DNA of 64,000 bases from NCBI GenBank assembly GCA_964291235.2, contig OZ219815.1, positions 960,001 to 1,024,000 on the forward strand, read 5' to 3'. Shown here piece by piece: positions 6,701 to 19,052 of the stretch. The number at the start of each line of letters is the position of its first letter. Within the stretch, counting starts at the first letter, position 1. The DNA is from Vicinamibacteria bacterium. Its GTDB lineage: Bacteria; Acidobacteriota; Vicinamibacteria; Marinacidobacterales; Marinacidobacteraceae. Position numbers and translations under genes: made by a program. The notes under the pieces were generated by a model, which was given only the letters and a program-made list of their open reading frames with translations, made no database searches and was not told the DNA's origin.

Positions 6701-8218
6701 CCGCGGAAGCGCTTCGGGGCGGTTGGCTCTACACGGGCGACCTGGGACGGCTCGACGAGGCGGGACACCTCTTCCTGGTCGGTCGTCGCAAGGACGTCAT
6801 CGTGGACAGCGGCGGGAAGAACATCTACCCGGACGAAGTGGAGGAAATCTACGCGGCGCCCGAGTTGATCGGCGAACTTGCCGTCGTTGGACTTCCCGAC
6901 GGGATGGCCGAACAGGTGGCGGCGGTTGTCGTCCCCAAGGAGCAGACCGCGGAAGGGAGGCAGCGCGTCGAGAACCACTTCCGTTCCGTCTCGTCCCGGC
7001 TGCCACTGCACAAGCGCGTCAAGACGGTCGAATTCCGCGACGAAGCGCTTCCCCGAACCGCGACGCGCAAGGTGAAGCGCGCCGAGCTGGTGCGCTGGTT
7101 AGGCGACCGGCGGCGGGCAGCGGCCGCGGAAGCCGGAGAAGAGGCCGTTTCCGGGAATCGGATCCTTGAACTCGTGGCGTCCATCTGCGAGAGGCCGGTG
7201 TCCGAGATTCGGGCCTCGTCTTCCTTTGCGGAGCTTGGCTTCGACAGCCTGATGTACAACGAACTCGCGGCGGAACTCGAGAGCGAATTCGGGGAGTCGT
7301 CAACGCCCGAAGCGCTCGCCAACATGAACACCATCTCGGAGCTGGTGCTCGCCATCCGGACGCCCCGCGCGGGCGCCAGGACGCGCCGCGCCCGCCGTCC
7401 CGAATCCGCCAGGAAGCGCGAGAAGGACGAGATCGAGATTCCGCCCGCGGTGGCGCGCGCCGGACGGCACACGCTTACCGAAGTCCAGCGGTGGTTCTAC
7501 CACCAGGTTCTGGAGCCGACCTTCACGGGCCGTGCGCACATTCCGAATCACACGAACTATCTCGTCGTGGCGAATCACTCGTCGCACCTGGACATGGGGC
7601 TCGTAAAGATGGCTCTCGGCGAAGCGGGCTCGAACCTGGTGGCGCTCGCGGCTGCCGATTACTTCTTCGACAACCGCGTGAAGCGGACGTTCTTCGGCAA
7701 TTTCACGAATCTCGTCCCCATGGAGCGCCGCGGCTCCCTCCGCGAGTCATTGGACCGGGCCGCCGCATACCTCAATCAGGGGCTACAGCGTGCTCGTGTT
7801 CCCCGAAGGAACACGCTCGCGGAGCGGCCGGATTCAGCCGTTCCGCCGCGGTTTTGCGCATCTGGCGTTTCGCTGCCGGATCGGCGTCCTGCCGATCCAT
7901 CTCGACACCTGGAACGCGTTTCCGCCGGGCGCGGTCGGCCTCCGATCGCGGACGATAGCGGCACGCATCGGGCCCTTCCTTTCGCATGATTTTCTGGCTC
8001 GATTCGCCGGGGGAGGCGTTCGCACGGCGGTGGCGGAGCAGCGAGTGACCGCTTTCGTGCAAACGATCGTCGAGCGCCTGGGCCGGCAGGAACCCGTGCA
8101 GTTCGAGCAGGAAGCGGCGCGCATCCTCCAGGACGAGCCGGCGAAGGACACCGACCCTCCGCGCCCCGCCGCTCCGCCCGCGGCAGAACCGATGCCCGAC
8201 CCGACCCCGATCGGTTGA
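3793..8218 (+). CDS. elbD: ElbD-like multidomain enzyme (acyl reductase - acyl-CoA synthetase - ACP - acyltransferase), frameshifted at about 7779-7782
   Basis: GGTGFLGK and YTYTK (FAR); FTSGTTGTPKG, GYGLTE, YTGDLG (AMP-binding); LGFDSL (ACP); NHSSHLD (acyltransferase). The FPEGTRS block continues in another frame (ORF 7790..8218). Confidence 0.85.
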
Positions 8219-8236
8219 TCCCGAGCGGTTAGCGCA

Positions 8237-9238
8237 GTGACGTCGCCTCCCGTGCCCCGGACGCTGGTCACCGGCGCGACCGGCTTCCTGGGCAGCCACC
8301 TGATGCCTCTGCTCCTCGAGGGAGGAGAGCCCATCCGGGTGCTGGCCCGGCAACCCGCACCGGATCTCTCGGCCAGGGGCGTCGAGGTGATGATTGGTGA
8401 CGTGGCTTCCGGGGCCGGGCTGGATGCGGCGCTCGACGGAGTCCGCCGGGTCTTCCATCTGGCTGGCCGGGTCTCACGGGATCCGGAAGCCGCCGCCAGT
8501 CTTTCGCGGGTGCACGTAGATGGCACCCGCACCCTGGCCCACGCTGCCCGCCGGGCGGGAGTGGAGCGGATCCTGCTCGTATCGACGAGCGGAACGATTG
8601 CGGTGTCCTGCGACCCCGAACCCGACTGTGACGAAACGGCGCCCGTTCCCATCGAACAGATCGGGCGCTGGCCGTACTACCGGAGCAAGTGGCTGCAAGA
8701 GCGGGCGCTCCTGGCGGATGCCGGGGAAATCGAGGTCGTGATCGTGAATCCCTCGCTGCTGCTCGGGCCGGGTGACGAACGGCTGTCCTCGACCGGAGAC
8801 GTGCTTCGGTTTCTTTCCGGCCAGGTCAGCGTGGTTCCGCCCGGCGGGTTGAACTTCGTGGACGTCCGGGATGCCGCCGCCGGGGTCGCGGCTGCCATGA
8901 CCAAGGGCCGCAGCGGCCAGCGGTACCTGCTGGGCGGTCACAACTGGAGCTTTGCGGATTTCTTTCTCCGGCTTGGAGAGGTGTCCGGATCCCCCGCGCC
9001 GCGCGTACGCCTCCCGCGCGGTCTCTATACCGCCGGCGCGCTGTTGACGGAGGAAGTAGCGCGGCAGATCGGACGCGAACCGGCGGTGGATCGCGTCAGC
9101 CGGGAGATGGCCGCCTGCTACTGGTACTTCAGTTCGGAGAAGGCGACCCGGGAATTGGGCCACGATCCCCGCGACGGGCGGGTCACCCTGCTGGAGACCG
9201 TGAACTGGCTTCAGGGGAAGGATCCGGGGCTCTCCTGA
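8237..9238 (+). CDS. NAD-dependent epimerase/dehydratase (ElbE-like)
   Basis: TGATGFLG, HLAG, YYRSK, VDVRD. Confidence 0.85.
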   Translation: MTSPPVPRTLVTGATGFLGSHLMPLLLEGGEPIRVLARQPAPDLSARGVEVMIGDVASGAGLDAALDGVRRVFHLAGRVSRDPEAAASLSRVHVDGTRTLAHAARRAGVERILLVSTSGTIAVSCDPEPDCDETAPVPIEQIGRWPYYRSKWLQERALLADAGEIEVVIVNPSLLLGPGDERLSSTGDVLRFLSGQVSVVPPGGLNFVDVRDAAAGVAAAMTKGRSGQRYLLGGHNWSFADFFLRLGEVSGSPAPRVRLPRGLYTAGALLTEEVARQIGREPAVDRVSREMAACYWYFSSEKATRELGHDPRDGRVTLLETVNWLQGKDPGLS

Positions 9239-10145
9239 TCCGGACGGCGCCGGGCCTCACCGACAACTTCAGTTCGTCCCGCCAGCGGATGACATCTCCA
9301 TCCACCTCGGAGAGCAGTTCGCGGCCGGATCCGGCGCGGAAGGAATCGAGCGTCCCGATCACCGCGCACGCGATCCGGTGATGCTCGATCTCGCGCCGTC
9401 CGAAATGCGCCCCCCGGGTGAGGCGGGCTACTGCATCCACCACCGCCAGCGGACCGAGCGGCCCGATGATGACCGCGTCCAGGCGGCCGTCGCCGGGATC
9501 GGCGGCTGGAGCGAGGGGAATCCCACCGCCAAACCGGCGTGAGTTGAGGACCGTGAGGTCCAACAGCGTGCGGGGCCGCGGCGGGGTCTCGTCGAGGCCG
9601 ACGCGGAGCGACAACGGCTGGAAGACGCTGATTTCGCGGACCGCGGCCGCTGCGTAGGTCGCCCGGCCGAGGCCACGGCCGGCGGAGGCTCTCGCGGCAA
9701 CCGAGGCGGCGAGACCCAGCGAAAAGCTGTTCAGGAAGAAACGGGATGTCCCGGCGGTGTCCTCGATGTACCCGAGATCCGTGGGCAGCGCCGGCGTGCG
9801 GCGCAGGAAAGCGGCTGCTTCCGGGAGGCGGGAAGGGATTCCCGCCGCGCCCGCGAAGTCGTTCCCCGTACCACTGGAAAGCAGACCAAGTTCTGCGCTT
9901 CCGCCGGACCCGGCCAGACCGCGGGCCACCTCGGAGGCGGTGCCGTCCCCCCCGTAAGCGATCAACAAGGAGCGCGTGTGCGCTTCTGTCCGGGCGACCG
10001 CTTCCGCGTGGCCCGGCGCTTCGGTCCACACGAGATCGTGTGGGCCAAGCCTCTCGGTGAGAACCGCGGCCGCCGCCCGCCAGCGATCGCGACTGCTCCC
10101 GCCCCCGGCCTCGGGATTGGCAATCACCAGGGGAAGACTGCTCAT
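9183..10145 (-). CDS. Diacylglycerol kinase family (YegS/DAGK) lipid kinase
   Basis: NPEAG, GGDGT, GTGNDFA, FGGG, EVDGD. Confidence 0.92.
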   Translation of the reverse strand: MSSLPLVIANPEAGGGSSRDRWRAAAAVLTERLGPHDLVWTEAPGHAEAVARTEAHTRSLLIAYGGDGTASEVARGLAGSGGSAELGLLSSGTGNDFAGAAGIPSRLPEAAAFLRRTPALPTDLGYIEDTAGTSRFFLNSFSLGLAASVAARASAGRGLGRATYAAAAVREISVFQPLSLRVGLDETPPRPRTLLDLTVLNSRRFGGGIPLAPAADPGDGRLDAVIIGPLGPLAVVDAVARLTRGAHFGRREIEHHRIACAVIGTLDSFRAGSGRELLSEVDGDVIRWRDELKLSVRPGAVRIRRAPDPSPEASSRSPAG

Positions 10146-10319
10146 CTCGACGGGGCGATCCCGAATATGCTACGAGCCTCTCGGCGCGGCGGGGCGAGCG
10201 GCCCGCTCTGACCGAGTGCCCTTGCCCGAATCTCTCTTGATGGCGCCCGTCCCGGCTCCCCCGCCCCGCCTGGAGCGCCGGCGAGCCGGGACTCCCCTCA
10301 CACTTCGATCCGACGTCGC

Positions 10320-11051
10320 ATGAACCGGTTGTTTCATCATCTGGGCCGTTTCCTGGCCTCGCTCATGGCGGCGATTCGGGACGGCATTGCGCGCGGGATC
10401 ATACGGGCGCGCGTTCCCGCCAATGCCGTCACCCTCGCCGGTCCGGTAGCCATGACGTTCATCTTCTGGCCGCTGATCGAAGGAGACCAGTGGATGGCTG
10501 GTTGGGTCGGCCTGCTCGCGATCACCTTCGACGCCCTGGACGGAGCCGTTGCCCGGGTGTCCCGCAGGGTGACGCGCTTCGGTGCGTACCTGGATTCGGT
10601 GGTGGACCGCTACGCGGACATTTTGCTCATGTTCGCGCTGCTGGCCTACCTGATCATCTACGTCGAGCCGTCCGAACGCACTGCCTGGTTCATCATCTGG
10701 TGTTTCGCCACCGCGGGCACCGTGGTGACGTCGTATGCCCGCGCCCGCGCCGAAAACGTGATTCCCGGCTGTGCCATCGGATTCCTGGAACGTCCGGAGC
10801 GCACCGTGGGGATCATCGTCGGGCTCGTTACCGGGAACGTCCATCTTTCGTTGATCGTGGTAGCGATTTTCGGCAACCTGATCGCGGCACAGCGGATCTA
10901 CTACACCCGCGCCATCCTCGATGGTCGGACGCCCGCGTCCGGGTTCCGTTTCTGGACCTATCGCCGCGGCAGTGCGGAGCACGCGATGCTGAGCACCGCG
11001 TGTTTCTTCTTCATCGTCCTTGGACACCTGCTGATTCCGGCGCCTGCCTGA
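10320..11051 (+). CDS. CDP-alcohol phosphatidyltransferase (PIP-synthase-like)
   Basis: DALDGAVAR...FGAYLDSVVDRYAD signature; SYARARAE and GFLERPER; multiple TM segments. Confidence 0.9.
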   Translation: MNRLFHHLGRFLASLMAAIRDGIARGIIRARVPANAVTLAGPVAMTFIFWPLIEGDQWMAGWVGLLAITFDALDGAVARVSRRVTRFGAYLDSVVDRYADILLMFALLAYLIIYVEPSERTAWFIIWCFATAGTVVTSYARARAENVIPGCAIGFLERPERTVGIIVGLVTGNVHLSLIVVAIFGNLIAAQRIYYTRAILDGRTPASGFRFWTYRRGSAEHAMLSTACFFFIVLGHLLIPAPA

Positions 11052-11181
11052 ACGGGCAGCACCCAAGAAAAAACCCCGCTGCCGCCGGGCGGCTGCGGGC
11101 CGGTACGACGACCGCCGGAGAACGCGAGGTGCGTCTCCGGCGGCGCCGACAGCGGGTCGTCTGGTTGGACCCTAGGAGCAA

Positions 11182-11451
11182 CTACTCGACGTAGCTGTAA
11201 CCGCAGTTCTCGCAGGTCCAGGTCCGTCCCTGGCGGTACATGAGAGCGCCGCACTGCGGGCACGCCCGCGTATCCTCGTCCCCGGGGTTCTCGCCGAAGA
11301 GAGCGTCGTAGTCGATTTCTTCTTCGGTTTCTTCGTCTTCCTTCTTCTCTTCTTCCTGCTGCTGGGCAGCCGCAAACGAGGCGGCGCCCACCACGCCAGC
11401 GAAGGCGAAGCCGGCCCTCCTGAGGAATGCGCGACGGTTCAGGTCGTCCAT
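11182..11451 (-). CDS. Small Tat-signal protein with acidic linker and C-terminal CxxC...CxxC zinc ribbon
   Basis: LNRRAFLRR plus hydrophobic stretch plus AAA; CPQCG...CENCG; AGGAG RBS upstream. Confidence 0.8.
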   Translation of the reverse strand: MDDLNRRAFLRRAGFAFAGVVGAASFAAAQQQEEEKKEDEETEEEIDYDALFGENPGDEDTRACPQCGALMYRQGRTWTCENCGYSYVE

Positions 11452-11497
11452 TTTCGTAATCTCCTGATGTTCGTGAATTGGGACTGCTGGCTGAGCC

Positions 11498-12862
11498 TCA
11501 GTCGCCGTAGCCGACGGTCGAACGCGCGAATTCCTTGACCTTCTCGGCCATCCGGCGCTCTTCCACGATCTTCTCCCAATCCACCGCGGGCTCTTTCACC
11601 TCGGCGGTGGGCGGAAGAATGTACTTCGGCATGTTGTACTCGTCCTTGAACATCTGCGTCCGGACGTGCCCGGTGGCGAACTCGGCGTTCTCTCCCGACA
11701 TGAGGTAGGTCAGCGTCGGAACGACGTCCCGCCGCTGCACCCGCTCGGTGACGGTATGGCCCTTCTTGAAGTCGGGCCCGAGCGCCATGAACCACACGTA
11801 GTGGGCGTAGTAGTTGCCCGGGCTGTGGCCAAGCTGTCCGTAGATGTTCACTTCGTCGTCCCGGCCGCACTCGGGGCGGATCACCAGCGCGGTGGTGTCC
11901 CGGAGGTACGCGTCGGCCTGGATCTGGCGCCACAGGTTGCCGATCAGCTCATCGGTAGTCTTGATGTGCTTGATGTACTCCCAGTAGTCCGTGTTGTAGT
12001 CCCAGAATCCGAAGTCGGCGTGCGCGTCGTCGAGAGCGAGGATTTGCGCGGTGATGGACTTCGGCTTGAACTCCTTGAGGATCTGGGGCACCAGGGTCAG
12101 CACCTGGGCGTCCCCGTAAGGGATTTCCCGGTTGATGACCGGCTCCCGGGTGGAAGGCGGAACGTAGGACTTCGAAGCCAGGGTGCCGTCGATGAAGTCC
12201 TCGACCTGCTTCCGCTCCTTCGCGGTGTGCCCGAGCCCCTTTTCGACGTTCAGATCCACGATCTGAGCGCCGGTGAGCTTCTGCTCCGGATAGAAGATCC
12301 GGTTCATGGTGAGGCTCGTGGACCCGTGCTTTACGCCGTACTCGGGATGCTGGCTGAAGTGCTTCACGTCCCAGGTCCAGGCCCGGTAGTAGGAAGCACT
12401 CTGCAGGGTCCAGAAATCGGTCGCCGTCCCGCCGGCCTTCTTCCGGATGTACTCGGCCCAGGTGGGGTAGCGGGGCCGCTGTGCGGGAGCATCCACGCCG
12501 CTGAGCACCTCGGAGTACATGTAGCCGTGGAGGTTCGCGGTCTCGCCGTAGTCCTCGGTGAAGACCGTGCCCTCGGCAGCCATCTTCGTCTGGAACGGCG
12601 AGTGCTCCGGGTTGTCGATGACGTCGATCTTCCGGGCGCCGTTTCCGAGGATGACGGTCACCAGGTGCTTCGTCTTGAAGCCCGGGTTCTCCGGAAGGAC
12701 CATGCCGCCCTGCGGAATCCCGGCGCCCGCTTCGAAGATGGGGCTGCCGGCGGCGTTCCGGCCACTCAGCACCGCACCGGCGCTGGCAGCCGCGCCCAGT
12801 TTGAAGAAGTCGCGACGGTCAATCGTCTTGGCGGTCGCTTTGGCGGTCTTCTCGGCGGTCAT
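11498..12862 (-). CDS. Tat-exported protein with degenerate alkaline-phosphatase/sulfatase-like fold
   Basis: IDRRDFFK Tat motif; KHLVTVILGNGAR, LDDAH, IRPECGRD, GH, ALGPDFKKG and DVVPTL blocks follow the AlkP-superfamily order. Confidence 0.7.
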   Translation of the reverse strand: MTAEKTAKATAKTIDRRDFFKLGAAASAGAVLSGRNAAGSPIFEAGAGIPQGGMVLPENPGFKTKHLVTVILGNGARKIDVIDNPEHSPFQTKMAAEGTVFTEDYGETANLHGYMYSEVLSGVDAPAQRPRYPTWAEYIRKKAGGTATDFWTLQSASYYRAWTWDVKHFSQHPEYGVKHGSTSLTMNRIFYPEQKLTGAQIVDLNVEKGLGHTAKERKQVEDFIDGTLASKSYVPPSTREPVINREIPYGDAQVLTLVPQILKEFKPKSITAQILALDDAHADFGFWDYNTDYWEYIKHIKTTDELIGNLWRQIQADAYLRDTTALVIRPECGRDDEVNIYGQLGHSPGNYYAHYVWFMALGPDFKKGHTVTERVQRRDVVPTLTYLMSGENAEFATGHVRTQMFKDEYNMPKYILPPTAEVKEPAVDWEKIVEERRMAEKVKEFARSTVGYGD

Positions 12863-14334
12863 CGGGGACCCTCCTTGCCGCTTTCGTCGGCGGCTTCGGT
12901 GTCTTCATTGTAGAAGTTGACCGTGATTCCGTCTATTTCGGAATCCCGATCTTCGTAGTAGAGCTTGAAGTTGCGGGCCTCGTCGGAGATGCCGAGCCGC
13001 ACGAGTTCCCAATCCCCCCACTCCATCGTGTCGGTGACGGTGAACGAGCCGGTCCAGATGTGCGGCTCGGGGAGCTTCGAGGGACGGTTGAGCGCCACGA
13101 AACCGCCGGTCTCGGGGGTCATGCTCTTGAGCTTGACCTTGAGCGCGTCGGCGCCATTCGGCGAACGGACATATCCCTCGATGCCGTGCACGCCCGAGAG
13201 GTTGTCTTCGGCCAGCACGGTGAGGCCCACCTGCTCGCCCAGCTTGGCCTCGGTCTTGGTGAACTGCACCGCCAGGATCTCTGCCGGCACCTGGTCGATC
13301 ATCTCCGTTTCCTGCTCCACGTGCACCGTGGCGGCTTCCATCAGCGGCTCGGTCCGGTTGAAGTAGTACCGGATGTTGGTGGCGTGGTCCTTGAGCGTGA
13401 CGCGCATGAGCTGCCACTCGCCGCCCTCGTACCACTGCGGGATCTGGAGTGCGCCCTTGAAGAGGCCCGGCTGGGCTCCCACCATCACCATCGTCGAGCG
13501 GATCTGGTGGTATCCGCTCGGGGAAACCCACACGGTCTCCGCTTCGGTGGGGCCGGAAACGTCGTCTTCGGCGAGCACGCTGTACTTGATCAGGCCATCG
13601 CCGGCCCGCACCCGCTCGGTTTCCACGGTGACCGACTTCAGGGTGGGCGCGGTGATATCCACCTGGTCGCTCTTGCTGACATCGAAGCCGACCGGCTGTC
13701 CGTCCTCTTCCTGCATGGCCTTGTGGAAGTCGGCCCAGTAGGCCTTCCGGTCGCCCACCTTGTCGGCGATGATCGTCGTGCCGACGACATAGCGGCCGGG
13801 CGCCGCAAAGCGGGAGAGCTTGCCGCGGCCGAGGAAGAGCGTTTCGTCACTCTCGTGGGGCTGGAAGTTGATGTACATGGTGGCCGCGCGGCCGAGCTCG
13901 CGGTTGTAGAACAGCGAGACGAACGACTGCGCCGCGTTGTAGGGCGAGACGACCCGCGCGATGGCGCGCACCTCGTCTCCAGGCGCCACTTCCTTGCTGA
14001 GCACCCGCATCTCGGTGAGGATCGGAGGAAGCTGGTTCCCGGAGAGGTCCACTTCCTTCAACTGCTGATCGCGGCGCCGGTACTGGTACTGCTCGGGAAC
14101 CCGCAGCTCGGGCGCAAGACCCCAGCCGCCGTCGTCGTGCCCGCTCGAACTTATCACTCCGAACTCGTTCAGCACGTCGTGGGGCTCGAGGAGCGGATGG
14201 GTCTCGCCTTCCGGTGGCTTGGGCTCTTCTTGCTTGTCCTGCGCCATGGCGAAGCCGCCGAGGAACAGGAGCGCGACGGCTGCGGCCAGGAGTCCGACCG
14301 CCAAGCGTTTGGGTGTCGTGGAATGACTGAGCAT
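12859..14334 (-). CDS. Secreted protein with about three tandem Ig-like beta-sandwich repeats
   Basis: Sec signal ending FAMA-Q; repeated P.L..v.v...v..G....aEDd.SG...SP.G...F.G...GEW.L....D.A.N...Y units; ATGA overlap with the downstream gene. The track ORF's N-terminal extension is spurious. Confidence 0.75.
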   Translation of the reverse strand: MLSHSTTPKRLAVGLLAAAVALLFLGGFAMAQDKQEEPKPPEGETHPLLEPHDVLNEFGVISSSGHDDGGWGLAPELRVPEQYQYRRRDQQLKEVDLSGNQLPPILTEMRVLSKEVAPGDEVRAIARVVSPYNAAQSFVSLFYNRELGRAATMYINFQPHESDETLFLGRGKLSRFAAPGRYVVGTTIIADKVGDRKAYWADFHKAMQEEDGQPVGFDVSKSDQVDITAPTLKSVTVETERVRAGDGLIKYSVLAEDDVSGPTEAETVWVSPSGYHQIRSTMVMVGAQPGLFKGALQIPQWYEGGEWQLMRVTLKDHATNIRYYFNRTEPLMEAATVHVEQETEMIDQVPAEILAVQFTKTEAKLGEQVGLTVLAEDNLSGVHGIEGYVRSPNGADALKVKLKSMTPETGGFVALNRPSKLPEPHIWTGSFTVTDTMEWGDWELVRLGISDEARNFKLYYEDRDSEIDGITVNFYNEDTEAADESGKEGPR

Positions 14335-14456
14335 GAGGGAAGTTCTCCGTTCGCCCGGGAATAACCGCCGTGCGGGCAATGCACGGAACGGGGGTCCGCC
14401 CTTATACGGCGGAAAGAGGGCCGAAGTCAAATGGGACAGGGGTTTTTGGCCGCGAT

Positions 14457-15029
14457 TCAGGCCCGGACGGACCGGACGAACTCCGCAGCGCGCCGGATTC
14501 CCGGACTGACCCCGGTCCGTTCCGCGAGGCGGCGGAGATCCCACTGCGCGACGGTCCGCATGTCGAGCCGCATCTGCCCCTCCAGCGAGTCGAACACCGC
14601 CCCGTAATCCCGGAGCGCGCCGTCCACATCTCCGGCGGCCAATCGCGCCGCGGCGAGCAGCAGCCGCTGCCGGTCCGAACCTGACGGATCCATGGCCAGC
14701 GCAATTGGAACGCCGGTCTCCAGTCCGGCATCGCGCGGGAGCGCGAAACCAGCGCCGACGGTGTAACGCTGCGTGCGCAGCGTGGGGGATCAGGCGCGGA
14801 CGGACCGGACGAACTCCGCAGCGCGCCGGATTCCCGGACCGACCCCGGTCCGTTCCGCGAGGCGGCGGAGATCCCACTGCGCGACGGTCCGCATGTCGCG
14901 CCGCATCTGCCCCTCGAGCGAGTCGAACACCACCCCGTAGTCCCGGAGCGCGCCGTCCACATCTCCGGCGGCCAGTCGCGCCGCGGCGAGCAGCAGCCGC
15001 TGCCGGTCCGAACCTGACGGGTCCATGGC
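14457..15029. repeat. About 240-bp direct repeat (14457-14696 and 14790-15029) duplicating the 3' end of the TPR gene
   Basis: Manual alignment shows 8 mismatches; the copy encodes the last 78 aa of the TPR protein. Confidence 0.95.
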
Positions 15030-15989
15030 GTGCGCTGTTTCAAACAGCTCCACCGCTTCCCGGTGGCGTCCTTGCAGGTACACGGCGTTCGCGAGGTTGT
15101 AGTGCCCGAAAATGAAGTCCGGTGCGAGTTCCAGCGCCCGGCGAAAGGCGTCCTCCGCTTCCGGCAGCCGATCCAGATCCCGGAGAGTGACCCCGAGGTT
15201 CGAGGCGAGGGAGTGACTCAGGGGATCGAGGTCCGCGGCCTTCTCGAGTTCGGTCAGCGCTTCGCCGGGGCGTTCCAGCTCCCCGAGGGCCGCCCCGGCG
15301 TTCGCCCACCCGGGGGCGAAACCGGGCAGGGTTTCGGTCGTTCGGCGAAACGACGCGAGCGCCGCCTCCAGATCGTCGAGAACGATCATGGTCTTGCCGA
15401 GTTCGAAGTGCGCGGCGGCGAGAGATTCGTCCCGCTCGATGGCCTTTCGGAAAGACTCGGCCGCTTCCGCCGGGTTCTTGTGCTCGTTCGCCGAACAGCC
15501 GGCCAGCAGATGGCCCATCGGGTGGTCGCCGTTCTCAGCCGTTGCCGCCACGGCTGCCCGGGCGCGCACGCTTGCCGCCGGCGCGTGAAGGGCAATGCGG
15601 CGCAGCTCGGCGGCGCTGCCGGCGCGATCCATATCGGTGGCGTCCGGACCGGAAACCGCGGCGGGGGGGGCGGGAGGGACCGGTTCCCGCGCCACCTCGA
15701 ATTGGCAGGCGGCGCCCTTGCCGGCAAGCAGGTCCGCGGCCCGCCGGACCACTTCATCCTCCCGGGCGGAGGCCACCAGCGAGCGGCTTCCGGCTCCGAG
15801 GTGGGAAAGGCGGGCCAGCACGTAGGCTGGCGTGGCGATCGCGGGGAGGGGAGGCGTTTCGTCGAGCCTGCCGCGCCGGCGAATCGCGGAGCGGCAGGGG
15901 AACGCCCGGTGGAAATCGGGAAGCAGCACGGCGCCGGCCTCTTCGGGGAACGGGCCGGTCTCGTGCAGCCGCAGCGGCAACTCCTCCAT
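14790..15989 (-). CDS. Tetratricopeptide repeat protein
   Basis: Successive TPR units (AHFELG..., GWANAG..., LASNLG..., GHYNLA...); start uncertain because the frame stays open upstream. Confidence 0.85.
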   Translation of the reverse strand: MEELPLRLHETGPFPEEAGAVLLPDFHRAFPCRSAIRRRGRLDETPPLPAIATPAYVLARLSHLGAGSRSLVASAREDEVVRRAADLLAGKGAACQFEVAREPVPPAPPAAVSGPDATDMDRAGSAAELRRIALHAPAASVRARAAVAATAENGDHPMGHLLAGCSANEHKNPAEAAESFRKAIERDESLAAAHFELGKTMIVLDDLEAALASFRRTTETLPGFAPGWANAGAALGELERPGEALTELEKAADLDPLSHSLASNLGVTLRDLDRLPEAEDAFRRALELAPDFIFGHYNLANAVYLQGRHREAVELFETAHAMDPSGSDRQRLLLAAARLAAGDVDGALRDYGVVFDSLEGQMRRDMRTVAQWDLRRLAERTGVGPGIRRAAEFVRSVRA

Positions 15990-16303
15990 GGCTAGCGCCG
16001 GGATGACCGGCGCGTCCGCGGCGGCTGGAACCCGGGACGCGGCGGTGCGCGCGGTCTCTCCATCGCGGCTCAGGAGGAGCCTCCACCTCCCTCCCTCCGG
16101 CGGGGGGCCGATAGGCAGGCCAACCGTTTTCGACCGAAAGCGCGGCAGCTCCGGCGAGCCGCGCCGCCGGTGCGGGAGGTGCGGGACACGACACCCACAC
16201 GGTGTTCTTGAGGCGCGACGCTCCCATGGCCCACGATTCTAAGGACCGGGGCCGGCGTCTCCCGAATTCGTGCATCGCGGGATCAATATGCTTTCCGGGT
16301 TCC

Positions 16304-16966
16304 GTGACGAACACGCTCCACCGCTACGGCGCTCCCCAGACGCTGAAGGACGATTACATCGTCTTCGCGATGGCGGCGCGGGGAATCAACGACGAGGGGT
16401 CTCCCGAAAAGCTCCAGCGGTTCACCGAAATCGCGCTTCGGCACGGTCCCATCAACCTCGGCGACGCAACCAAGGGCGGAATCTTCCGATCCTCCCGGCT
16501 GAATCCCCTGGCCCATTGGCGCCGGCGAAAGCGTCTGGCGGCCGATTCGATCCGGAAGGGGGTGGACGCCCCCACGGTGGTCTCGGCGGTTTTTGACACC
16601 GAGGAGGCGCTGGTCGGTTTCCTCGTGGACCTGAAGGAAGCCGATCTGGGCATCAGCATCAACATCAGCGGTTTGACCGAGCGCGCTGCCGAATTGGCCC
16701 GCGACGCAGGAATCGTGCGGCACAGCGTCGAGTACAGCCTGGGTTTCTTCGGGAACCTGGATCGGCTGCCCGACCGCGCCACCCTCCAGCTTTCCACGAT
16801 GTGCGGGCACGGCATGCTCTCGTTCGGGTTCGCCCGCAAGATGCTGGACTGGGTGCGGACCGGCCGTCGCTCTCCCGAGGAGTGCGCGGAGGCGATGGCG
16901 CGTTTCTGCTCCTGCGGCATCTTCAACACCACCCGCGCCTGCCGCATTCTGCGGGACCGCACCTGA
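16304..16966 (+). CDS. Conserved hypothetical Cys-rich (probable metal/Fe-S binding) protein
   Basis: Probable GTG start MTNTLHRYG; C-terminal TMCGHGM...C...FCSCGIFN..RAC. Confidence 0.7.
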   Translation: MTNTLHRYGAPQTLKDDYIVFAMAARGINDEGSPEKLQRFTEIALRHGPINLGDATKGGIFRSSRLNPLAHWRRRKRLAADSIRKGVDAPTVVSAVFDTEEALVGFLVDLKEADLGISINISGLTERAAELARDAGIVRHSVEYSLGFFGNLDRLPDRATLQLSTMCGHGMLSFGFARKMLDWVRTGRRSPEECAEAMARFCSCGIFNTTRACRILRDRT

Positions 16967-17032: not shown

Positions 17033-17197
17033 ATGGCTGACTGCCCGGTGTGCGCCGCCGCCGTGGAGATATCCGAGGATCCGCTCGAAGGAGAGGTCCT
17101 CGAGTGTCCGGAATGCGGCAGCGAACTTGAGATTCTGGCCCTCGACCCCATCGTCCTGGGCGAGGCTCCGGAGACGGAAGAGGATTGGGGTGAATGA
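17033..17197 (+). CDS. lysW: Amino-group carrier protein LysW (54 aa)
   Basis: Hand translation [54 protein letters not shown]; zinc ribbon plus EDWGE C-terminus; below the ORF track cut-off. Confidence 0.97.
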
Positions 17198-18030
17198 GGA
17201 TCGGGTTCCTTCATTCGCTGATTCGTCCGGAAGAGAAGCTCCTCATCCGGGAGTTGCGAGGACGTCCCGGCGTCGAGTTGGTACTCCTTGATGACCGTCG
17301 GCTGGTGTTCGATCTGCGAACGCCGCCCGCGGTTGATGTCGTCCTGGAGCGCTCCATAAACCACTCCCGGGCGATGCACGCCCTGCGGCTCCTCGAGAGC
17401 ATGGGTGTCCCCTGCGTCAACCGCTACGAAGTCTCGCGAAAGTGCGGCGACAAGATCCTGACGGCCGTCGCGCTCCAGGAGTTCGGAGTGCCACAGCCGG
17501 AAACGCGGGTCGCGTTCACCGAAGACTCCACCCTGGACGCCATCGAACAGCTCGGTTATCCGGTGGTGTTGAAGCCGGCGGTCGGATCCTGGGGACGGCT
17601 GCTATCCCGGATCAACGATCGGGAGGCGGCGGAGACCGTGATTGAGCACAAGGCGATCCTCGGCAGCTACCACCATTCCATCTTCTTCGCCCAGAAGTAC
17701 ATAGAGAAAGGAGGCCGGGACATTCGCAGCTTCGTGGTCGGGGATGACTGCATCGCCGCCGTCTATCGGACTTCGGATCACTGGATCACCAACACTGCCC
17801 GGGGGGCGCGGACCTCCAACTGCCCGGTCACCGCCGATCTCGCCGAGATCTCGCTGCGGGCGGCGGCCGCGGTTGGAGGCGGCGTCCTGGCGGTGGACCT
17901 GTTCGAGACCGGTGACGGCCTGCTGGTCAACGAGGTCAACTACACGATGGAGTTCCGGAACTCCATTGACGTTACCGGGGTCAACATCCCGGAGAGGATC
18001 GTGTCCTACCTCCTCTCTTCCGACCGATGA
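17194..18030 (+). CDS. lysX: LysW-aminoadipate ligase (RimK-family ATP-grasp)
   Basis: [29 protein letters not shown] (LysX-like rather than ArgX-like); follows lysW. Confidence 0.92.
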
Positions 18031-19052
18031 TCCGCGTCTCCATTGCCGGCGGCTCCGGGTACGCCGGCGGCGAACTGCTACGCCTGATGCTGGGTCACCC
18101 CGAGGTCGAGGTGGGGGAGATCACCTCCGAGCGTCTCGCCGGGAAGTACGCCCACGGCGCCCATCCCAACCTGCGCGGCGCCACCCGGCTCCGGTTCTGC
18201 AGGTTGGAAGAGCTTTCGAAGTGCGACGTGCTCTTCGTGTGCCTGCCCCACGGTGAGTCGGCACGTCGGATCGACGACTTCCGCAGCATTGCCGGCCGGA
18301 TTATTGACCTGGGCGCCGATTTCCGGCTGCGCGACAGTGCTGCCTACGAGCGCTGGTACGGCCGGCCGCATCCCCGCCCGGACCTGCTGGGCCGCTTCGT
18401 TTACGGAATCCCGGAACTGAGCCGGCAGGAACTCCCTGACGCGGACCTGGTCGCCTGCGCCGGGTGTAACGCGACCGCCGCCATCCTCGCGCTGAAACCG
18501 CTGTACGCGGCGGGAGTCGTCGGATCCGCCGTCGTGGAGGTCCTTGTCGGATCGAGTGAAGCCGGCAACACGGCGACCGCCACCAGTCACCATCCGGAGC
18601 GCAGCGGCGCGGCCCGGGCCTTCCGGCCCACCGGGCACCGCCATCAGGGGGAGATCACGGCAGTGCTCGGCGCCGACCGGCTCCATTTCTCCGCCACCTC
18701 GATCGAAATGGTGCGCGGAGTCCTGGCGACCTGCCACGCCTTCACGGACCGCGCGCTCGACGATCGGGAGCTGTGGCAGATCTACCGCACCGCCTACGCG
18801 AAGGAGCCCTTCGTGCGCATCGTCAAGGGCCAGAGCGGAATCCATCGCTACCCCGACCCCAAGATCCTCGCCGGAACCAACTTCTGCGACGTGGGGTTCG
18901 AGCGCGATCCCGACACCAACCGGGTGGTGGTGCTCAGCGCGCTCGACAACCTGATGAAGGGAGCGGCGGGGCAGGCGGCGCACGCGTTCAACGTGATGCA
19001 GGGGCTTCCCGAGACTGTCGGCCTGGAATTCACCGGCCTGCACCCGATCTAG
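18027..19052 (+). CDS. lysY: [LysW]-aminoadipyl-phosphate reductase (ArgC family)
   Basis: [34 protein letters not shown]. Confidence 0.92.

What the first reader, a model, noticed from the sequence alone, without database searches (positions are those of the whole stretch)
11182..14334. Uncharacterised three-gene exported system: Ig-repeat protein, Tat AlkP-fold protein and Tat zinc-ribbon mini-protein
Seen: three co-oriented, tightly linked genes (ATGA overlap; 46-nt gap) with clear RBSs, all with export signals (one Sec, two Tat). By eye they are richer in Lys/Glu/Tyr than the Arg/Ala-rich neighbours. None matches a family I can name with a function. Inference: a periplasmic or surface complex with cofactor-loaded catalytic and metal-binding subunits and an Ig-like scaffold.
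Basis: partly seen in the sequence, partly recalled or inferred. Interest (0 to 1): 0.75.

Follow-up and report, generated by a model that had tools for sequence, protein, structure and literature searches.

The report
Exported enzyme-like trio, function unknown
Three tightly linked genes for exported proteins (a triple Ig-like protein, a divergent alkaline-phosphatase-fold protein and a tiny zinc-ribbon protein) are real and conserved in marine and soil Acidobacteriota, belong to no described family, and have no known function.

Summary
On the minus strand lie A (12859-14334, 491 aa, Sec-type signal), B (11498-12862, 454 aa, twin-arginine signal) and C (11182-11451, 89 aa, twin-arginine signal, acidic linker, CxxC-x12-CxxC ribbon). 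A and B overlap by ATGA, B and C are 46 nt apart, and all three have ribosome-binding sites.

All three are under purifying selection (dN/dS 0.03-0.24). B models as an alkaline-phosphatase-superfamily fold, with sulfatases as the best solved matches. It reaches no Pfam or NCBIfam family cut-off. Its distant relatives touch DUF1501, a Tat-exported family of unknown function.

The catalytic centre is non-canonical:
- Asn replaces the first metal-binding Asp.
- An invariant His sits at or near the nucleophile position.
- Glu-Cys replaces Asp-His.
- The other metal site (Asp278, His281, His346) is kept.

In 63 related loci, all labelled Acidobacteriota except one mislabelled bin, A precedes B in 54, C follows B in 30, all three occur in 26, and B stands alone in 5. 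So B is the core, A is an old and tightly coupled partner, and C is a clade-specific addition.

No binding was shown. The single complex job (B+C) gave no verdict. I read this as a periplasmic metalloenzyme module of unknown substrate: a new variant of the uncharacterised DUF1501-like modules.

The parts
12859..14334 (-). Gene A: exported protein of 491 aa. It has a Sec-type signal (residues about 1-31), a conserved but unstructured N-terminal segment (residues about 55-100; E81, Q84, Y85, R87 and Q91 invariant), and three Ig/MG-like beta-sandwich domains (about 105-220, 231-340 and 352-475).
   Evidence: for the gene; alignment of 26 sequences. AlphaFold2 model, pLDDT 76.7. Foldseek hits to tandem Ig arrays, E 5e-10 to 5e-8, with low whole-chain TM of 0.13-0.17; only weak Pfam hits, DUF7743 at 22.8 bits (cut-off 27) and MG2 at E 0.023.
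11498..12862 (-). Gene B: Tat-exported protein of 454 aa with an alkaline-phosphatase-superfamily fold. This is the core of the module. Key residues are N74, T108, H112, D278, H281, E331, C332 and H346.
   Evidence: for the gene and family; pLDDT 83.5, pTM 0.82. Foldseek hits to sulfatases and phosphonate monoester hydrolase, E 3e-10, TM 0.37-0.49. for the family relationships and residue analysis.
12749..12862 (-). Tat signal region of B (residues 1-38, with twin arginine at R16-R17 in DRRDFFK).
   Evidence: TAT_signal E 2e-4. RR is invariant in 30 of 30 and was found in 64 of 64 B genes, meaning the 63 loci plus the window.
12859..12862 (-). ATGA overlap of the A stop and the B start, which implies translational coupling.
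   Evidence: Across 54 loci plus the window, the A-B junction is -4 nt in 28, -1 in 8, +2 in 14, +5, +8 and +14 in one each, and +63 and +114 in one each. In the last two the start choice is uncertain.
11182..11451 (-). Gene C: Tat-exported mini-protein of 89 aa. It has a signal with NRRAFLR and an AxA|Q site, an acidic low-complexity linker, and a C-terminal Cys4 ribbon.
   Evidence: 343 homologues at E<=0.01. R.CPQCGALMYRQGRTWTCENCGYSYVE is almost invariant in 31 sequences down to 42% overall identity. for the solved-structure comparison.
11185..11268 (-). Zinc-ribbon-type domain of C (residues 62-89; C64, C67, C80, C83).
   Evidence: Pfam Zn_ribbon_RPB9 at 23.5 bits (cut-off 25.2); the family profile against solved structures gives RNA polymerase subunit M at E 5.6e-6, eS31 at 3.1e-4, and S27ae and L37ae at 1e-3 to 1e-2.
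11066..11099 (-). Terminator-like GC-rich hairpin followed by U6, lying between C and the convergent CDP-alcohol phosphatidyltransferase gene. It probably marks the end of the operon.
   Evidence: fold of 11055-11185 on the minus strand, z -3.54, with 0 of 200 shuffles folding as well. The consensus scan did not list it.
14790..15989 (-). Co-oriented upstream gene for a cytoplasmic TPR protein (399 aa, no signal peptide). It may be part of the same transcription unit, but its membership is uncertain.
   Evidence: for the TPR repeats. It lies directly upstream of (A)BC in the orthologous clade, including loci where B is only 57-63% identical. In L026 its stop codon overlaps the B start by one base. 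It is absent from the paralogous and soil A+B loci.

Best explanation
This is a small operon for a periplasmic metalloenzyme module of unknown substrate.

Shown:
- B is the constant element. It is a twin-arginine-exported protein with the alkaline-phosphatase-superfamily fold. It belongs to a large uncharacterised family (984 cluster representatives at E<=1e-3) whose far members reach the DUF1501, Sulfatase, Phosphodiest and Metalloenzyme models.
- One canonical metal site is kept (Asp278, His281, His346).
- The second site is rebuilt: Asn74 replaces Asp, and Glu331-Cys332 replaces Asp-His.
- An invariant His112 lies at or next to the place of the Ser/Thr/formylglycine nucleophile, with Thr/Ser108 four residues before it.
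- A is a Sec-exported protein of three Ig/MG-like domains. It is translationally coupled to B in three of the four B clades.
- C is a Tat-exported Cys4 ribbon on an acidic tether, found directly after B in one clade only.

Inferred:
- B folds and takes up its metal in the cytoplasm, which explains Tat export. That route also keeps Cys332 and the four Cys of C from being oxidised in transit.
- In the periplasm B pairs 1:1 with A. A would sit near the mouth of the catalytic cleft and supply recognition of a large, anionic substrate, probably a phosphate or sulfate ester.
- C is an accessory that docks on B as a regulator or shuttle.
- The chemistry is most likely metal-assisted hydrolysis or transfer of an ester group. 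It cannot proceed by the canonical Ser/Thr/formylglycine route unless Thr108 serves as nucleophile.
For: Fold:
- The AlphaFold2 model has pLDDT 83.5.
- Foldseek against the PDB gave 446 matches at E<=0.001 among the best 500. The top ones are sulfatases and phosphonate monoester hydrolases at E 3e-10 to 2e-8 and TM 0.37-0.49.

Sequence links:
- The family profile hits the S1_8A sulfatase at E 0.009, with RPECGRD aligned to GDHGR.
- Phosphodiest matches 9 of 30 members and Sulfatase 4 of 30, both weakly.
- hhalign to canonical relatives gives 99.4% and 99.0% probability. N74 aligns with the Asp of IIDGLR, and H112 aligns without gaps with the Thr at the nucleophile position of P0279.

Active-site conservation, out of 30 family members:
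- H112, 30; H346, 30; H281, 29; D278, 28.
- E or D at 331, 30; C332, 28; N74, 27; T or S at 108, 30.
- In 23 wider relatives, H112, D278, H281 and H346 are present together in 19 and absent together in 4.

Module structure:
- Of 63 loci, 26 are ABC, 28 are AB, 4 are BC and 5 are B alone.
- The A-B junction is 14 nt or less in 53 of 55.
- A and B are paired in both paralogous copies within the same genomes.

A-B coupling:
- Tyr352 is present in 55 of 55 B proteins that have an A and in 0 of 9 without.
- The C-terminal Arg447 is present in 55 of 55 against 1 of 9, and Trp287 in 55 of 55 against 2 of 9.
- In L026 and L033, which lost A inside the ABC clade, B is 75% identical to the window's B. 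Their sisters L019 and L020 are 90-92% identical, while the flanking genes are no more diverged.
- In those two loci B has dN/dS 0.21-0.24, against 0.07-0.13 in ABC loci.
- 92 of the 341 columns invariant in the ABC clade have changed there.

C:
- It lies directly downstream of B, with gaps of -8 to +87 nt, in 29 loci plus the window.
- The ribbon is almost invariant and dN/dS is 0.03-0.21.

Precedent: passages of Kamneva et al. 2012 (PMC3542564, read) describe Tat-signal DUF1501 proteins in conserved modules. The partners carry signal peptides and beta-sandwich (Big_2, PPC-like) domains, and the function is unknown.
Against: - No activity, metal content or binding has been measured.
- B does not reach any Pfam or NCBIfam cut-off.
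- The first metal-binding Asp is missing, and so is a clearly placed Ser/Thr/Cys nucleophile. The three alignments disagree on the nucleophile position: H112 from the gapless P0279 alignment, from spacing to G122 and from the modelled helix start; N110 from the P0337 alignment; T108 from the TxxxH motif.
- The Tyr352-A correlation rests on only 2 phylogenetically independent contrasts (sign test p 0.5).
- B occurs alone in 5 loci, so neither A nor C is required.
- The association of C with B is confined to one clade and cannot be separated from shared ancestry.
- All loci come from one phylum, so conserved synteny partly reflects relatedness.
Confidence: 0.5

Rival explanations
1. B is a non-catalytic member of the fold, meaning a binding protein or pseudoenzyme. 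The module would then be a structural or sensing assembly of the cell envelope, with A as a surface or periplasmic scaffold.
For: The canonical Asp after strand 1 is Asn, or Gly in the wider family, and Asp-His is replaced by Glu-Cys or Glu-Phe. 4 of 23 wider relatives have lost all four candidate metal residues yet persist. From memory, non-enzymatic periplasmic members of this fold are known, for example the YejM/PbgA domain.
Against: H112, H346, D278, H281 and E/D331 are kept in 28-30 of 30 family members and together in 19 of 23 distant relatives. That pattern is typical of a working metal site. Tat export suggests the cofactor is loaded in the cytoplasm. dN/dS of 0.07-0.13 shows strong constraint.
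Confidence: 0.15
2. This is a redox module. C would be a Tat-exported rubredoxin-like Fe(Cys)4 one-electron carrier serving B, and B would be a metal-dependent oxidoreductase rather than a hydrolase. This parallels the cytochrome-motif partners of DUF1501 proteins in Planctomycetota and Verrucomicrobiota.
For: C has CxxC-x12-CxxC with CGYxY and W.C motifs. From memory, that spacing matches the Fe(Cys)4 domain of rubrerythrin. There are weak matches to rubredoxin-like models: RCKP-type at E 0.0097 and RUBY_RBDX at E 0.02. Tat export is what a cofactor-bearing protein would need. Kamneva et al. 2012 proposed electron transport for DUF1501 modules (passages). B's rebuilt site of His, Cys and carboxylates could hold Fe or Mn.
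Against: The best matches of the C profile are classical zinc ribbons (RNA polymerase subunit M at E 5.6e-6, then eS31 and L37ae). Rubredoxin itself scores only E 7.8. No redox domain or haem motif is present in A or B. No oxidoreductase is known in this fold, as far as I recall.
Confidence: 0.1
3. The module works on membrane lipids. B would be a periplasmic head-group (phospho-alcohol) transferase or hydrolase acting on lipids made by the neighbouring genes: the ElbD-like reductase/ligase/acyltransferase, the epimerase, the DAG-kinase-like protein and the CDP-alcohol phosphatidyltransferase.
For: The order C -> <- CDP-alcohol phosphatidyltransferase, DAG-kinase-like, epimerase, ElbD-like is kept across the orthologous clade. 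It holds even where B is only 57-63% identical, in L032 and L062. From memory, members of this fold (EptA, LtaS, OpgB) move phospho-head-groups in the periplasm. One distant relative gave a weak LtaS hit (E 1.6e-4).
Against: The lipid genes are convergent or on the other strand, beyond a terminator-like hairpin. Insertions of 1.5-3.5 kb separate them from C in several loci (L008, L017, L021, L022, L023 and L032). The paralogous, soil and B-alone loci lack them. B has no membrane anchor.
Confidence: 0.1
4. There is no three-part system. C, and possibly the TPR gene, is merely a syntenic neighbour inherited within one lineage, and only A-B, or B alone, is a functional unit.
For: C is limited to one B clade plus L032 and L062, and is absent from 33 of 63 loci. 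Every B residue that tracks C also tracks that clade.
Against: C stays immediately downstream of B, with gaps of -8 to +87 nt and overlapping B in L026 and L033, in all 30 loci that have it. This includes lineages that lost A. Its 28-residue ribbon is nearly invariant. B and C hits from metagenomes share identical longest-contig lengths in 9 cases, for example 30573, 13350, 26115 and 3897, which suggests co-location at B identities of 54-65%. Both proteins use Tat.
Confidence: 0.15

Closest known systems
DUF1501 (Pfam PF07394) proteins and their conserved gene modules in Planctomycetota, Verrucomicrobiota and Lentisphaerota (Kamneva et al. 2012, PMC3542564; passages read)
   Same: - About 400 aa, with a twin-arginine signal and a sulfatase-like fold.
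- The motif P-E-[FC]-G-R-D.
- Encoded next to exported partner proteins that carry beta-sandwich domains.
- Function unknown.
- Distant relatives of B reach the model: 2 of 30 above the cut-off and 2 more below it.
- Atlas neighbours are Planctomycetota clusters partly labelled DUF1501.
   Different: - B and all 30 family members give no DUF1501 hit at E<=1.
- After strand 1, B has G-N-G-x-R, not G-G-G-x-R.
- B keeps Thr/Ser108 and has Cys332 where most relatives have Phe.
- The partners here are a triple Ig/MG-like protein and a Tat zinc-ribbon mini-protein, not PSCyt/PSD cytochrome-motif proteins.
- The host phylum is Acidobacteriota.
Type I sulfatases and phosphonate monoester hydrolases (the nearest solved structures, e.g. 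1p49, 6bia, 4upk, 6hhm)
   Same: The overall fold. The helix motif TTDELIG aligns with the sulfatase D..vG motif, and RPECGRD aligns with GDHGR.
   Different: There is no C/S-x-P-x-R signature. His112 lies where the formylglycine precursor would be (weak alignment, E 61 for that stretch; spacing argument). There is no Asp-Asp after strand 1. TM is only 0.37-0.49 and identity 11-16%.
Two-metal nucleotide pyrophosphatase/phosphodiesterase and alkaline phosphatase type enzymes (canonical relatives P0279, P0337 and P0295)
   Same: The same order of motifs: strand 1 + G-x-R, T-x-x-x-H, D-x-x-H, [DE]-x-G-R, and H-x-x-G. The equivalent of the Zn1 site (D278, H281, H346) is retained.
   Different: The equivalent of the Zn2 site is altered. 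Asp becomes Asn74 and Asp-His becomes Glu331-Cys332. The nucleophile Thr is not unambiguously aligned.
Zinc ribbons of archaeal RNA polymerase subunit M/TFS and ribosomal proteins eS31 and eL43
   Same: Two CxxC knuckles 12 residues apart. The profile E-values are 5.6e-6 to 1e-2, and Pfam Zn_ribbon_RPB9 gives E 5e-5.
   Different: Those are cytoplasmic nucleic-acid-binding proteins. C is exported by Tat, carries an acidic tether, and has its own invariant surface (MYRQGRTW, GYSYVE at the C-terminus). Searches for a Tat-exported or periplasmic zinc ribbon or rubredoxin found 0 papers.
C-terminal Cys-rich zinc-finger tail of class II (B12-dependent) ribonucleotide reductases
   Same: An acidic linker followed by a CxxC...CxxC module. 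NCBIfam PRK06556 matches residues 28-85 of C to positions 898-955 of 960, at E 2.4e-6. From memory, that tail acts as a tethered redox shuttle to the active site, which is a possible working analogy for C.
   Different: The score of 25.6 bits is far below the cut-off of 859, and only the tail matches. C is a separate, exported protein. The functional analogy is untested.
Tandem Ig/macroglobulin-like beta-sandwich arrays (titin, filamin, the FdeC adhesin, the SbsB S-layer protein, complement and alpha2-macroglobulin MG domains)
   Same: Three consecutive beta-sandwich domains. There are weak MG2 signals: Pfam E 0.023 and complement C4 E 0.2.
   Different: No significant sequence relation. A has its own conserved motifs: D-x-x-S-G, W-Y-E-G-G-x-W, D-x-A-x-N, and an N-terminal VPEQYQYxRxDxQ segment. 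Only sub-threshold DUF7743 hits were seen, with DUF7035 and DUF7034 as atlas leads.

Membership tests
Alkaline phosphatase superfamily (fold level) | Core alpha/beta fold shared with sulfatases, NPP enzymes and phosphomutases | tested here: met
   Model pLDDT 83.5. Foldseek probability 1.00, E 3e-10, TM 0.37-0.49 to sulfatases and phosphonate monoester hydrolase. hhalign 99.4% to a canonical relative.
Alkaline phosphatase superfamily (catalytic members) | Metal-binding Asp directly after the first beta strand | tested here: not met
   Asn74 aligns with the Asp of IIDGLR. Among 30 members the position is N in 27, S in 2 and A in 1.
Alkaline phosphatase superfamily (catalytic members) | Ser, Thr or formylglycine nucleophile at the N-terminus of the helix after strand 2 | tested here: inconclusive
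   H112 (30 of 30) sits at that position in the gapless alignment to P0279 and by spacing to G122. The modelled helix starts at residue 115. T/S108 (30 of 30) forms a TxxxH motif with H112. The alignment to P0337 puts N110 there. Model coordinates could not be inspected.
Alkaline phosphatase superfamily (catalytic members) | D-x-x-(x)-H pair and a C-terminal His forming one metal site | tested here: met
   D278 in 28 of 30, H281 in 29 of 30, H346 in 30 of 30. The three are lost together with H112 in 4 of 23 distant relatives.
Alkaline phosphatase superfamily (catalytic members) | Asp-His (or Asp-Asn) pair after the late beta strand | tested here: not met
   Glu331-Cys332 aligns with the D-H of GDHGR and TTDHGR. 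The acid is kept in 30 of 30 and Cys in 28 of 30.
Pfam DUF1501 (PF07394) | Score at or above the gathering cut-off (27 bits) | tested here: not met
   No hit at E<=1 for B or for any of the 30 members. Among 30 distant relatives, 2 reach 28.0-28.6 bits and 2 are below the cut-off.
Pfam DUF1501 (PF07394) | Twin-arginine signal, about 400 aa, and a P-E-F-G-R type motif (motif recalled from memory and seen in the relatives) | tested here: met
   DRRDFFK. RPECGRD aligns with the PEFGRD of relatives.
Type I sulfatase (Pfam PF00884) | C/S-x-P-x-R signature for formylglycine, and a model score above the cut-off | tested here: not met
   No such motif is present in the sequence. Sulfatase matches only 4 of 30 members, with a best E of 0.038.
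Tat substrates | S/T-R-R-x-F-L-K-like motif, then a hydrophobic stretch and an AxA site | tested here: met
   B: TAT_signal 21.6 bits against 22.7, and RR in 64 of 64. C: R6, R7, F9 and L10 invariant in 31 of 31, and sources name homologues as 'twin-arginine translocation signal domain-containing protein'. Actual export was not tested.
Zinc ribbon (RPB9/TFS-like) | Two CxxC knuckles on a short beta-hairpin pair, binding Zn | tested here: inconclusive
   All four Cys are invariant. The Pfam score of 23.5 bits is below the cut-off of 25.2. The profile against solved zinc ribbons gives E 5.6e-6.
Ig-like / macroglobulin (MG) domain arrays | Tandem beta-sandwich domains | tested here: met
   Three beta-sandwich blocks in the model, and Foldseek hits to tandem Ig and MG arrays. 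No sequence family reached its cut-off.

The most novel reading that the evidence does not exclude
B and its roughly 1000 cluster-level relatives would be a new catalytic type within the alkaline-phosphatase fold. A histidine would take the nucleophile's place, and a His/Cys/carboxylate site would hold a metal loaded in the cytoplasm (Fe or Mn rather than Zn). In this clade the enzyme would work with a dedicated, Tat-exported Cys4 mini-protein on an acidic tether. That protein would swing into the active site as an electron or metal shuttle, while the Ig-like partner holds a polymeric substrate. This would make the operon a compact, tractable model for the long-unexplained DUF1501-type modules.
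Probability: 0.12. Interest if true: 0.75.

Novelty: new variant of a known kind. Interest (0 to 1): 0.5.

Why it matters
Tat-exported, sulfatase-like proteins of the DUF1501 type are among the most expanded unknown families in several environmental phyla. According to the passages read, they have had no assigned function since they were pointed out in 2012.

This locus offers a minimal, well-delimited version:
- one enzyme-like core with a clearly altered metal centre;
- one tightly coupled Ig-like partner, with candidate contact features (Tyr352, Trp287 and the C-terminal tail);
- in one clade, a 55-residue exported Cys4 protein with an almost invariant surface.

It also defines three protein families that Pfam and NCBIfam do not cover. 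If B's chemistry were worked out, it would annotate hundreds to thousands of genes in marine (including sponge-associated, judging by record labels) and soil bacteria. It might also add a new reaction type to a textbook enzyme superfamily. If the activity turns out to be an ordinary esterase, the gain is modest.

Tried and rejected
- Complex prediction of B (residues 45-454) with Zn and mature C (residues 29-89), with C as partner. Result: no verdict, score 0.01 against a mark of 0.32, controls not run, and C's own fold uncertain. This is neither for nor against binding. It used the only job, so A+B and A+B+C were not tried.
- Pfam and NCBIfam on the three proteins gave nothing above cut-off. 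Single-sequence B against solved structures gave 0 hits at E<=10.
- NCBIfam on 25 distant relatives gave only sub-threshold hits: choline sulfatase, independent phosphoglycerate mutase, phosphopentomutase, LtaS and PafA.
- Rfam on 10800-16300 gave one chance-level match (E 0.19, far below its cut-off) and no riboswitch or leader.
- The promoter and terminator consensus scan gave 1 promoter-like site inside gene A and nothing useful. A hairpin plus U6 after C was found only by folding.
- A search of the window for a second copy of A, B or C found none. The paralogous A'B' pair lies elsewhere in related genomes.
- Testing the Tyr352-A link on a tree gave only 2 independent contrasts (p 0.5), so it remains a lead. 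Residues tracking C are confounded with clade.
- The careful tree did not finish in time, so a quick IQ-TREE tree was used.
- Foreign origin of the three genes is rejected. GC3 is native, and the Lys/Glu/Tyr bias is an amino-acid bias of the kind I recall for exported proteins.
- The longer 672-aa reading of A from the GTG at 14877 is rejected. Homologues start at the ATG at 14334 with the signal peptide, and the upstream part is Arg/Pro-rich read-through of a duplicated segment.
- Literature searches gave 0 papers for 'twin-arginine' + 'zinc ribbon' + 'periplasm', 0 for 'periplasmic rubredoxin', and 0 for DUF7743, DUF7035 or DUF7034. The search for DUF1501 found 12 papers, of which 11 were listed and none assigned a function in the listings. 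I read only passages of PMC3542564.
- The cluster-member look-up for names of distant relatives could not be made because the database was switched off.
The gene neighbourhoods of the 343 C homologues and of most B relatives therefore stayed unchecked.

Full report
**What is there**

Searches show three co-oriented genes on the minus strand.
- A: 12859-14334, 491 aa.
- B: 11498-12862, 454 aa.
- C: 11182-11451, 89 aa.

A's stop and B's start share ATGA, and B and C are 46 nt apart. Each start is preceded by a Shine-Dalgarno-like sequence (GGAG, AAGGAGG and AGGAG; read).

A begins with a classical signal peptide ending AMA|QD. I judged this by eye because no predictor was available. B carries DRRDFFK, and Pfam TAT_signal scores 21.6 bits, just under the cut-off of 22.7. 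C carries NRRAFLR, followed by an AxA|Q site, a 30-residue acidic linker, and CPQCG-x10-CENCG at the very C-terminus (C64-x2-C67-x12-C80-x2-C83).

A GC-rich hairpin followed by U6 lies 83-116 nt after C's stop, before the convergent next gene.

A and B have Lys 4.5-6.6% and Arg about 5%, while the neighbours have Lys 0-3% and Arg 9-12%. GC3 is equally high (0.87-0.90), so this is an amino-acid bias, of the kind I recall for exported proteins, and not foreign DNA.

**Are the genes real?**

Pairwise dN/dS against orthologues is:
- 0.107-0.188 for A (6 pairs);
- 0.072-0.133 for B in loci that have all three genes (6 pairs), and 0.213-0.238 in three loci without A;
- 0.030-0.209 for C (9 pairs).

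The word-indexed search gave 64 homologues for B, 39 for A and 343 for C. Where a source names them at all, the names are 'hypothetical', 'twin-arginine translocation signal domain-containing protein', or evident mislabels such as 'ribosomal protein S27AE'.

**Protein B: fold and family**

Pfam and NCBIfam give only the Tat signal. An AlphaFold2 model built on 30 sequences has pLDDT 83.5 and pTM 0.82.

Foldseek against the PDB returns sulfatases, phosphonate monoester hydrolases and other members of the alkaline-phosphatase superfamily. E-values are 3e-10 to 2e-8 at TM 0.37-0.49 and identity 11-16%.

A family profile reaches the S1_8A sulfatase at E 0.009. Scanned one by one, 9 of 30 members touch Phosphodiest, 4 of 30 touch Sulfatase, and 0 of 30 touch DUF1501.

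A profile search of 1.84 billion cluster representatives finds 984 relatives at E<=1e-3, of which 461 are at <=1e-10 and 35 at <=1e-30. I scanned 30 of these against Pfam:
- 14 have no family at E<=0.001.
- 4 touch DUF1501, 2 of them above the cut-off.
- The others touch Sulfatase, Phosphodiest or Metalloenzyme.

NCBIfam names none of 25. The atlas search points the same way, to Planctomycetota clusters partly labelled DUF1501.

B therefore belongs to a large unnamed family at the DUF1501 edge of the superfamily.

**Protein B: active site**

I aligned B to canonical-looking relatives (P0279, hhalign 99.4%; P0337, 99.0%) and to 22 wider relatives. The motif order of two-metal phosphodiesterases is kept, but with changes.

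| Position | Canonical | In B | Conservation in 30 members |
|---|---|---|---|
| After strand 1 | I-D-G-x-R | G-N74-G-x-R | N 27, S 2, A 1 |
| First metal site | D-x-x-H plus late His | D278, H281, H346 | 28, 29, 30 |
| Late strand pair | Asp-His | E331-C332 | acid 30, Cys 28 |

Most wider relatives have Phe at position 332.

The nucleophile position is ambiguous:
- The gapless alignment to P0279, the spacing to the conserved G122, and the modelled helix start at 115 all place the invariant H112 there.
- The alignment to P0337 places N110 there.
- T/S108, present in 30 of 30, makes a TxxxH motif with H112.

In the 23-sequence alignment, H112, D278, H281 and H346 occur together in 19 and are missing together in 4. 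One of those four has a shifted DDAH nearby, so the alignment is not certain there. This co-retention argues for a working metal centre that includes H112.

I could not inspect model coordinates, so spatial clustering is inferred and not shown.

**Protein A**

The model (pLDDT 76.7) has a disordered N-terminus, then three beta-sandwich domains at about 105-220, 231-340 and 352-475.

Foldseek finds tandem Ig and macroglobulin-type arrays: titin, filamin, FdeC, SbsB, and complement and alpha2-macroglobulin MG domains. E-values are 5e-10 to 5e-8, with low whole-chain TM (0.13-0.17), as expected for a flexible multi-domain chain.

Sequence signals are all below cut-off: DUF7743 at 22.8 bits, MG2 at E 0.023, and complement C4 at E 0.2. 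The atlas offers DUF7743, DUF7035 and DUF7034 as leads at 0.87-0.90.

The segment before the first domain, although unstructured, holds invariant residues (E81, Q84, Y85, R87, Q91). These are shared even with the 38%-identical paralogue, which makes it a candidate docking peptide. That is an inference.

**Protein C**

The last 28 residues (R.CPQCGALMYRQGRTWTCENCGYSYVE) are nearly invariant in 31 sequences whose overall identity falls to 42%. The linker varies freely in length.

The family profile matches classical zinc ribbons of solved structures: RNA polymerase subunit M at E 5.6e-6, eS31 at 3.1e-4, and L37ae. Rubredoxin scores only E 7.8. NCBIfam gives a partial match to the Cys-rich tail of B12-dependent ribonucleotide reductase (E 2.4e-6).

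'Zinc ribbon' is thus the best label, though the metal itself is untested.

Tat export fits a domain whose four thiols must be metal-bound before they reach the oxidising periplasm. This is an inference from general knowledge of the Tat pathway.

I found no paper on an exported zinc ribbon or periplasmic rubredoxin (0 hits).

**Co-occurrence**

One scan of species-representative genomes with the B alignment gave 63 loci. All come from records labelled Acidobacteriota (Vicinamibacteria, 'Candidatus Marinacidobacterium' or Marinacidobacterales). The one exception is a record labelled Gemmatimonadetes, whose B is identical to an Acidobacteria bin.

tblastn gave the following:

| Arrangement | Loci (of 63) |
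|---|---|
| A directly upstream of B | 54 |
| C directly downstream of B | 30 |
| A, B and C together | 26 |
| A+B only | 28 |
| B+C only | 4 |
| B alone | 5 |

Many genomes carry two modules: the ABC one, and a paralogous A'B' pair with B about 50% and A about 38% identical.

The A-B junction in 54 loci plus the window is -4 nt in 28, -1 in 8, +2 in 14, and +5, +8 and +14 in one each. It is larger in 2, where the start choice is uncertain. The B-C gap is -8 to +87 nt in 29 loci plus the window. L062 could not be measured because its B is broken.

A quick maximum-likelihood tree of B resolves four groups (the careful search did not finish, and L062 was left out):
- the ABC group, 27 rows including the window, with the A-less pair L026/L033 nested inside it and A-less L032 as its sister;
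- the paralogous AB group, 24 rows;
- a soil AB group, 4 rows;
- a B-alone group, 5 rows.

So B is the core, the A-B pairing is old, and C is specific to one clade.

**Hints that A and B work together physically**

Tyr352 lies in the loop that follows the ligand His346.
- It is present in 55 of 55 B proteins that have an A, and in 0 of 9 without. Those nine carry H in 5, S in 2, and N and A in one each.
- Arg447, in a C-terminal R...[Y/F]-G tail, is present in 55 of 55 against 1 of 9.
- Trp287, in the loop after His281, is present in 55 of 55 against 2 of 9.

L026 and L033 lost A inside the ABC clade. In those two:
- B is 75% identical to the window's B, against 90-92% for their sisters L019 and L020.
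- The flanking genes are not more diverged: C is 76-78% against 81-82%, and the 254-aa neighbour is 77-85% against 85%.
- Their branches are 5-10 times longer.
- 92 of the 341 columns invariant in the other 27 sequences have changed, 42 of them in both loci. The densest changes are in residues 331-360 and in the tail.

Against this, on the tree the presence of A changes only twice. Only two independent contrasts exist (p 0.5), and part of the change looks compositional (Lys to Arg). This is a lead, not a demonstration.

The one complex job went to B+C and gave no verdict. A+B was not tested.

**Neighbourhood**

Upstream and co-oriented lies a cytoplasmic TPR protein (14790-15989). It precedes (A)BC throughout the orthologous clade, and in L026 its stop overlaps the B start by one base. 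It is absent from the other clades. It may be an operon member; a cytoplasmic chaperone for the Tat substrates is one conceivable role. Equally, it may be only synteny.

Downstream, convergent or on the other strand, lie a CDP-alcohol phosphatidyltransferase, a DAG-kinase-like gene, an epimerase, and a large fused gene combining reductase, acyl-ligase, carrier and acyltransferase domains. From memory, this fused gene resembles the myxobacterial ether-lipid enzyme ElbD. That order persists down to loci with B at 57-63% identity. However, insertions of up to 3.5 kb intervene in several loci, and the other B clades lack these genes. I therefore rate a lipid role as a minor rival.

**Mechanism I commit to**

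B folds and binds its metal in the cytoplasm and is exported by Tat. It is made in step with A through coupled translation, and the two associate in the periplasm, with A near the active-site loops. The pair acts on an anionic ester of a large substrate. C is a later accessory of one clade that docks on B.

- Shown: gene structure, export signals, fold, conservation of candidate ligands, co-occurrence and coupling.
- Inferred: metal binding, catalysis, substrate class, A-B and B-C contact, and periplasmic rather than surface location.

I give the general picture about 0.8 and the specific mechanism about 0.3, so 0.5 overall.

**Comparison with what is known**

The nearest described system is the set of DUF1501 modules of Planctomycetota, Verrucomicrobiota and Lentisphaerota. 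These combine a Tat-signal, sulfatase-like protein with exported partners carrying Big_2, PPC-like or carbohydrate-binding domains and cytochrome-type motifs. Their function is unknown (Kamneva et al. 2012, PMC3542564; passages only). The other 10 papers listed for 'DUF1501' were seen as listings only.

The present module works like that kind of system but is not a Pfam DUF1501 member. It has different partners and a different, partly canonical active-site pattern. It matches no characterised complex.

**Verdict**

- Novelty: a new variant of a known, itself unexplained, kind.
- Interest: 0.5. This is a clean, testable entry point into a large unknown family, but no surprising function has been demonstrated.

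Noticed in passing
window 14457-14702 and 14790-15035: A 246-nt direct repeat at 96% identity, spaced 333 nt apart. It duplicates the 3' end of the TPR gene into the spacer upstream of gene A, creating a 78-aa pseudo-ORF (14457-14693) and inflating the 672-aa reading of A. It was not found in the 6 related loci checked, so it is either a recent duplication or an assembly artefact.
   Followed up: partly
window 3793-8218 (+): A large fused gene with NAD_binding_4 reductase, AMP-binding ligase, PP-binding carrier and acyltransferase domains. From memory it resembles the myxobacterial ether-lipid enzyme ElbD. Its acyltransferase domain is split between two reading frames near 7783-7795: profile positions 3-91 lie in one frame and 95-130 in ORF 7790-8218. 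This is a frameshift or a sequencing error.
   Followed up: partly
window 8237-11051: Genes for an epimerase/dehydratase, a DAG-kinase/YegS-like protein and a CDP-alcohol phosphatidyltransferase. Together with the fused gene they form a lipid-synthesis neighbourhood. Its position next to C is conserved in the orthologous clade, down to 52% identity for the transferase.
   Followed up: partly
window 16202-16966 (+): A 254-aa protein with no Pfam family, divergent from the TPR gene. It is more conserved than its neighbours, at 62-94% identity across 24 of the related loci. Its function is unknown.
   Followed up: no
window 17033-19052 (+): LysW (a zinc-ribbon carrier protein), LysX (ATP-grasp) and a LysY/ArgC-type semialdehyde dehydrogenase. 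These are genes of the amino-group-carrier-protein pathway for lysine or arginine synthesis.
   Followed up: no
L022 and L023: Two public bins, one labelled Acidobacteria and the other Gemmatimonadetes, carry identical B sequences and the same locus. One label is probably a binning error.
   Followed up: no
L061 7375-8314; L062 7001-8186: The B gene is broken across two reading frames in these two soil records. These are pseudogenes or assembly errors. L062 still has an intact C downstream.
   Followed up: no
L026 and L033 (B at 7001-8250): In the two lineages that lost gene A, B has evolved markedly faster than the flanking genes. It has also lost Tyr352 and its C-terminal tail, and C now overlaps B by 4-8 nt.
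   Followed up: yes
window 11066-11099 (-): A GC-rich hairpin followed by U6, lying between the convergent genes C and the CDP-alcohol phosphatidyltransferase. It may be a bidirectional terminator. The consensus scan missed it.
   Followed up: partly
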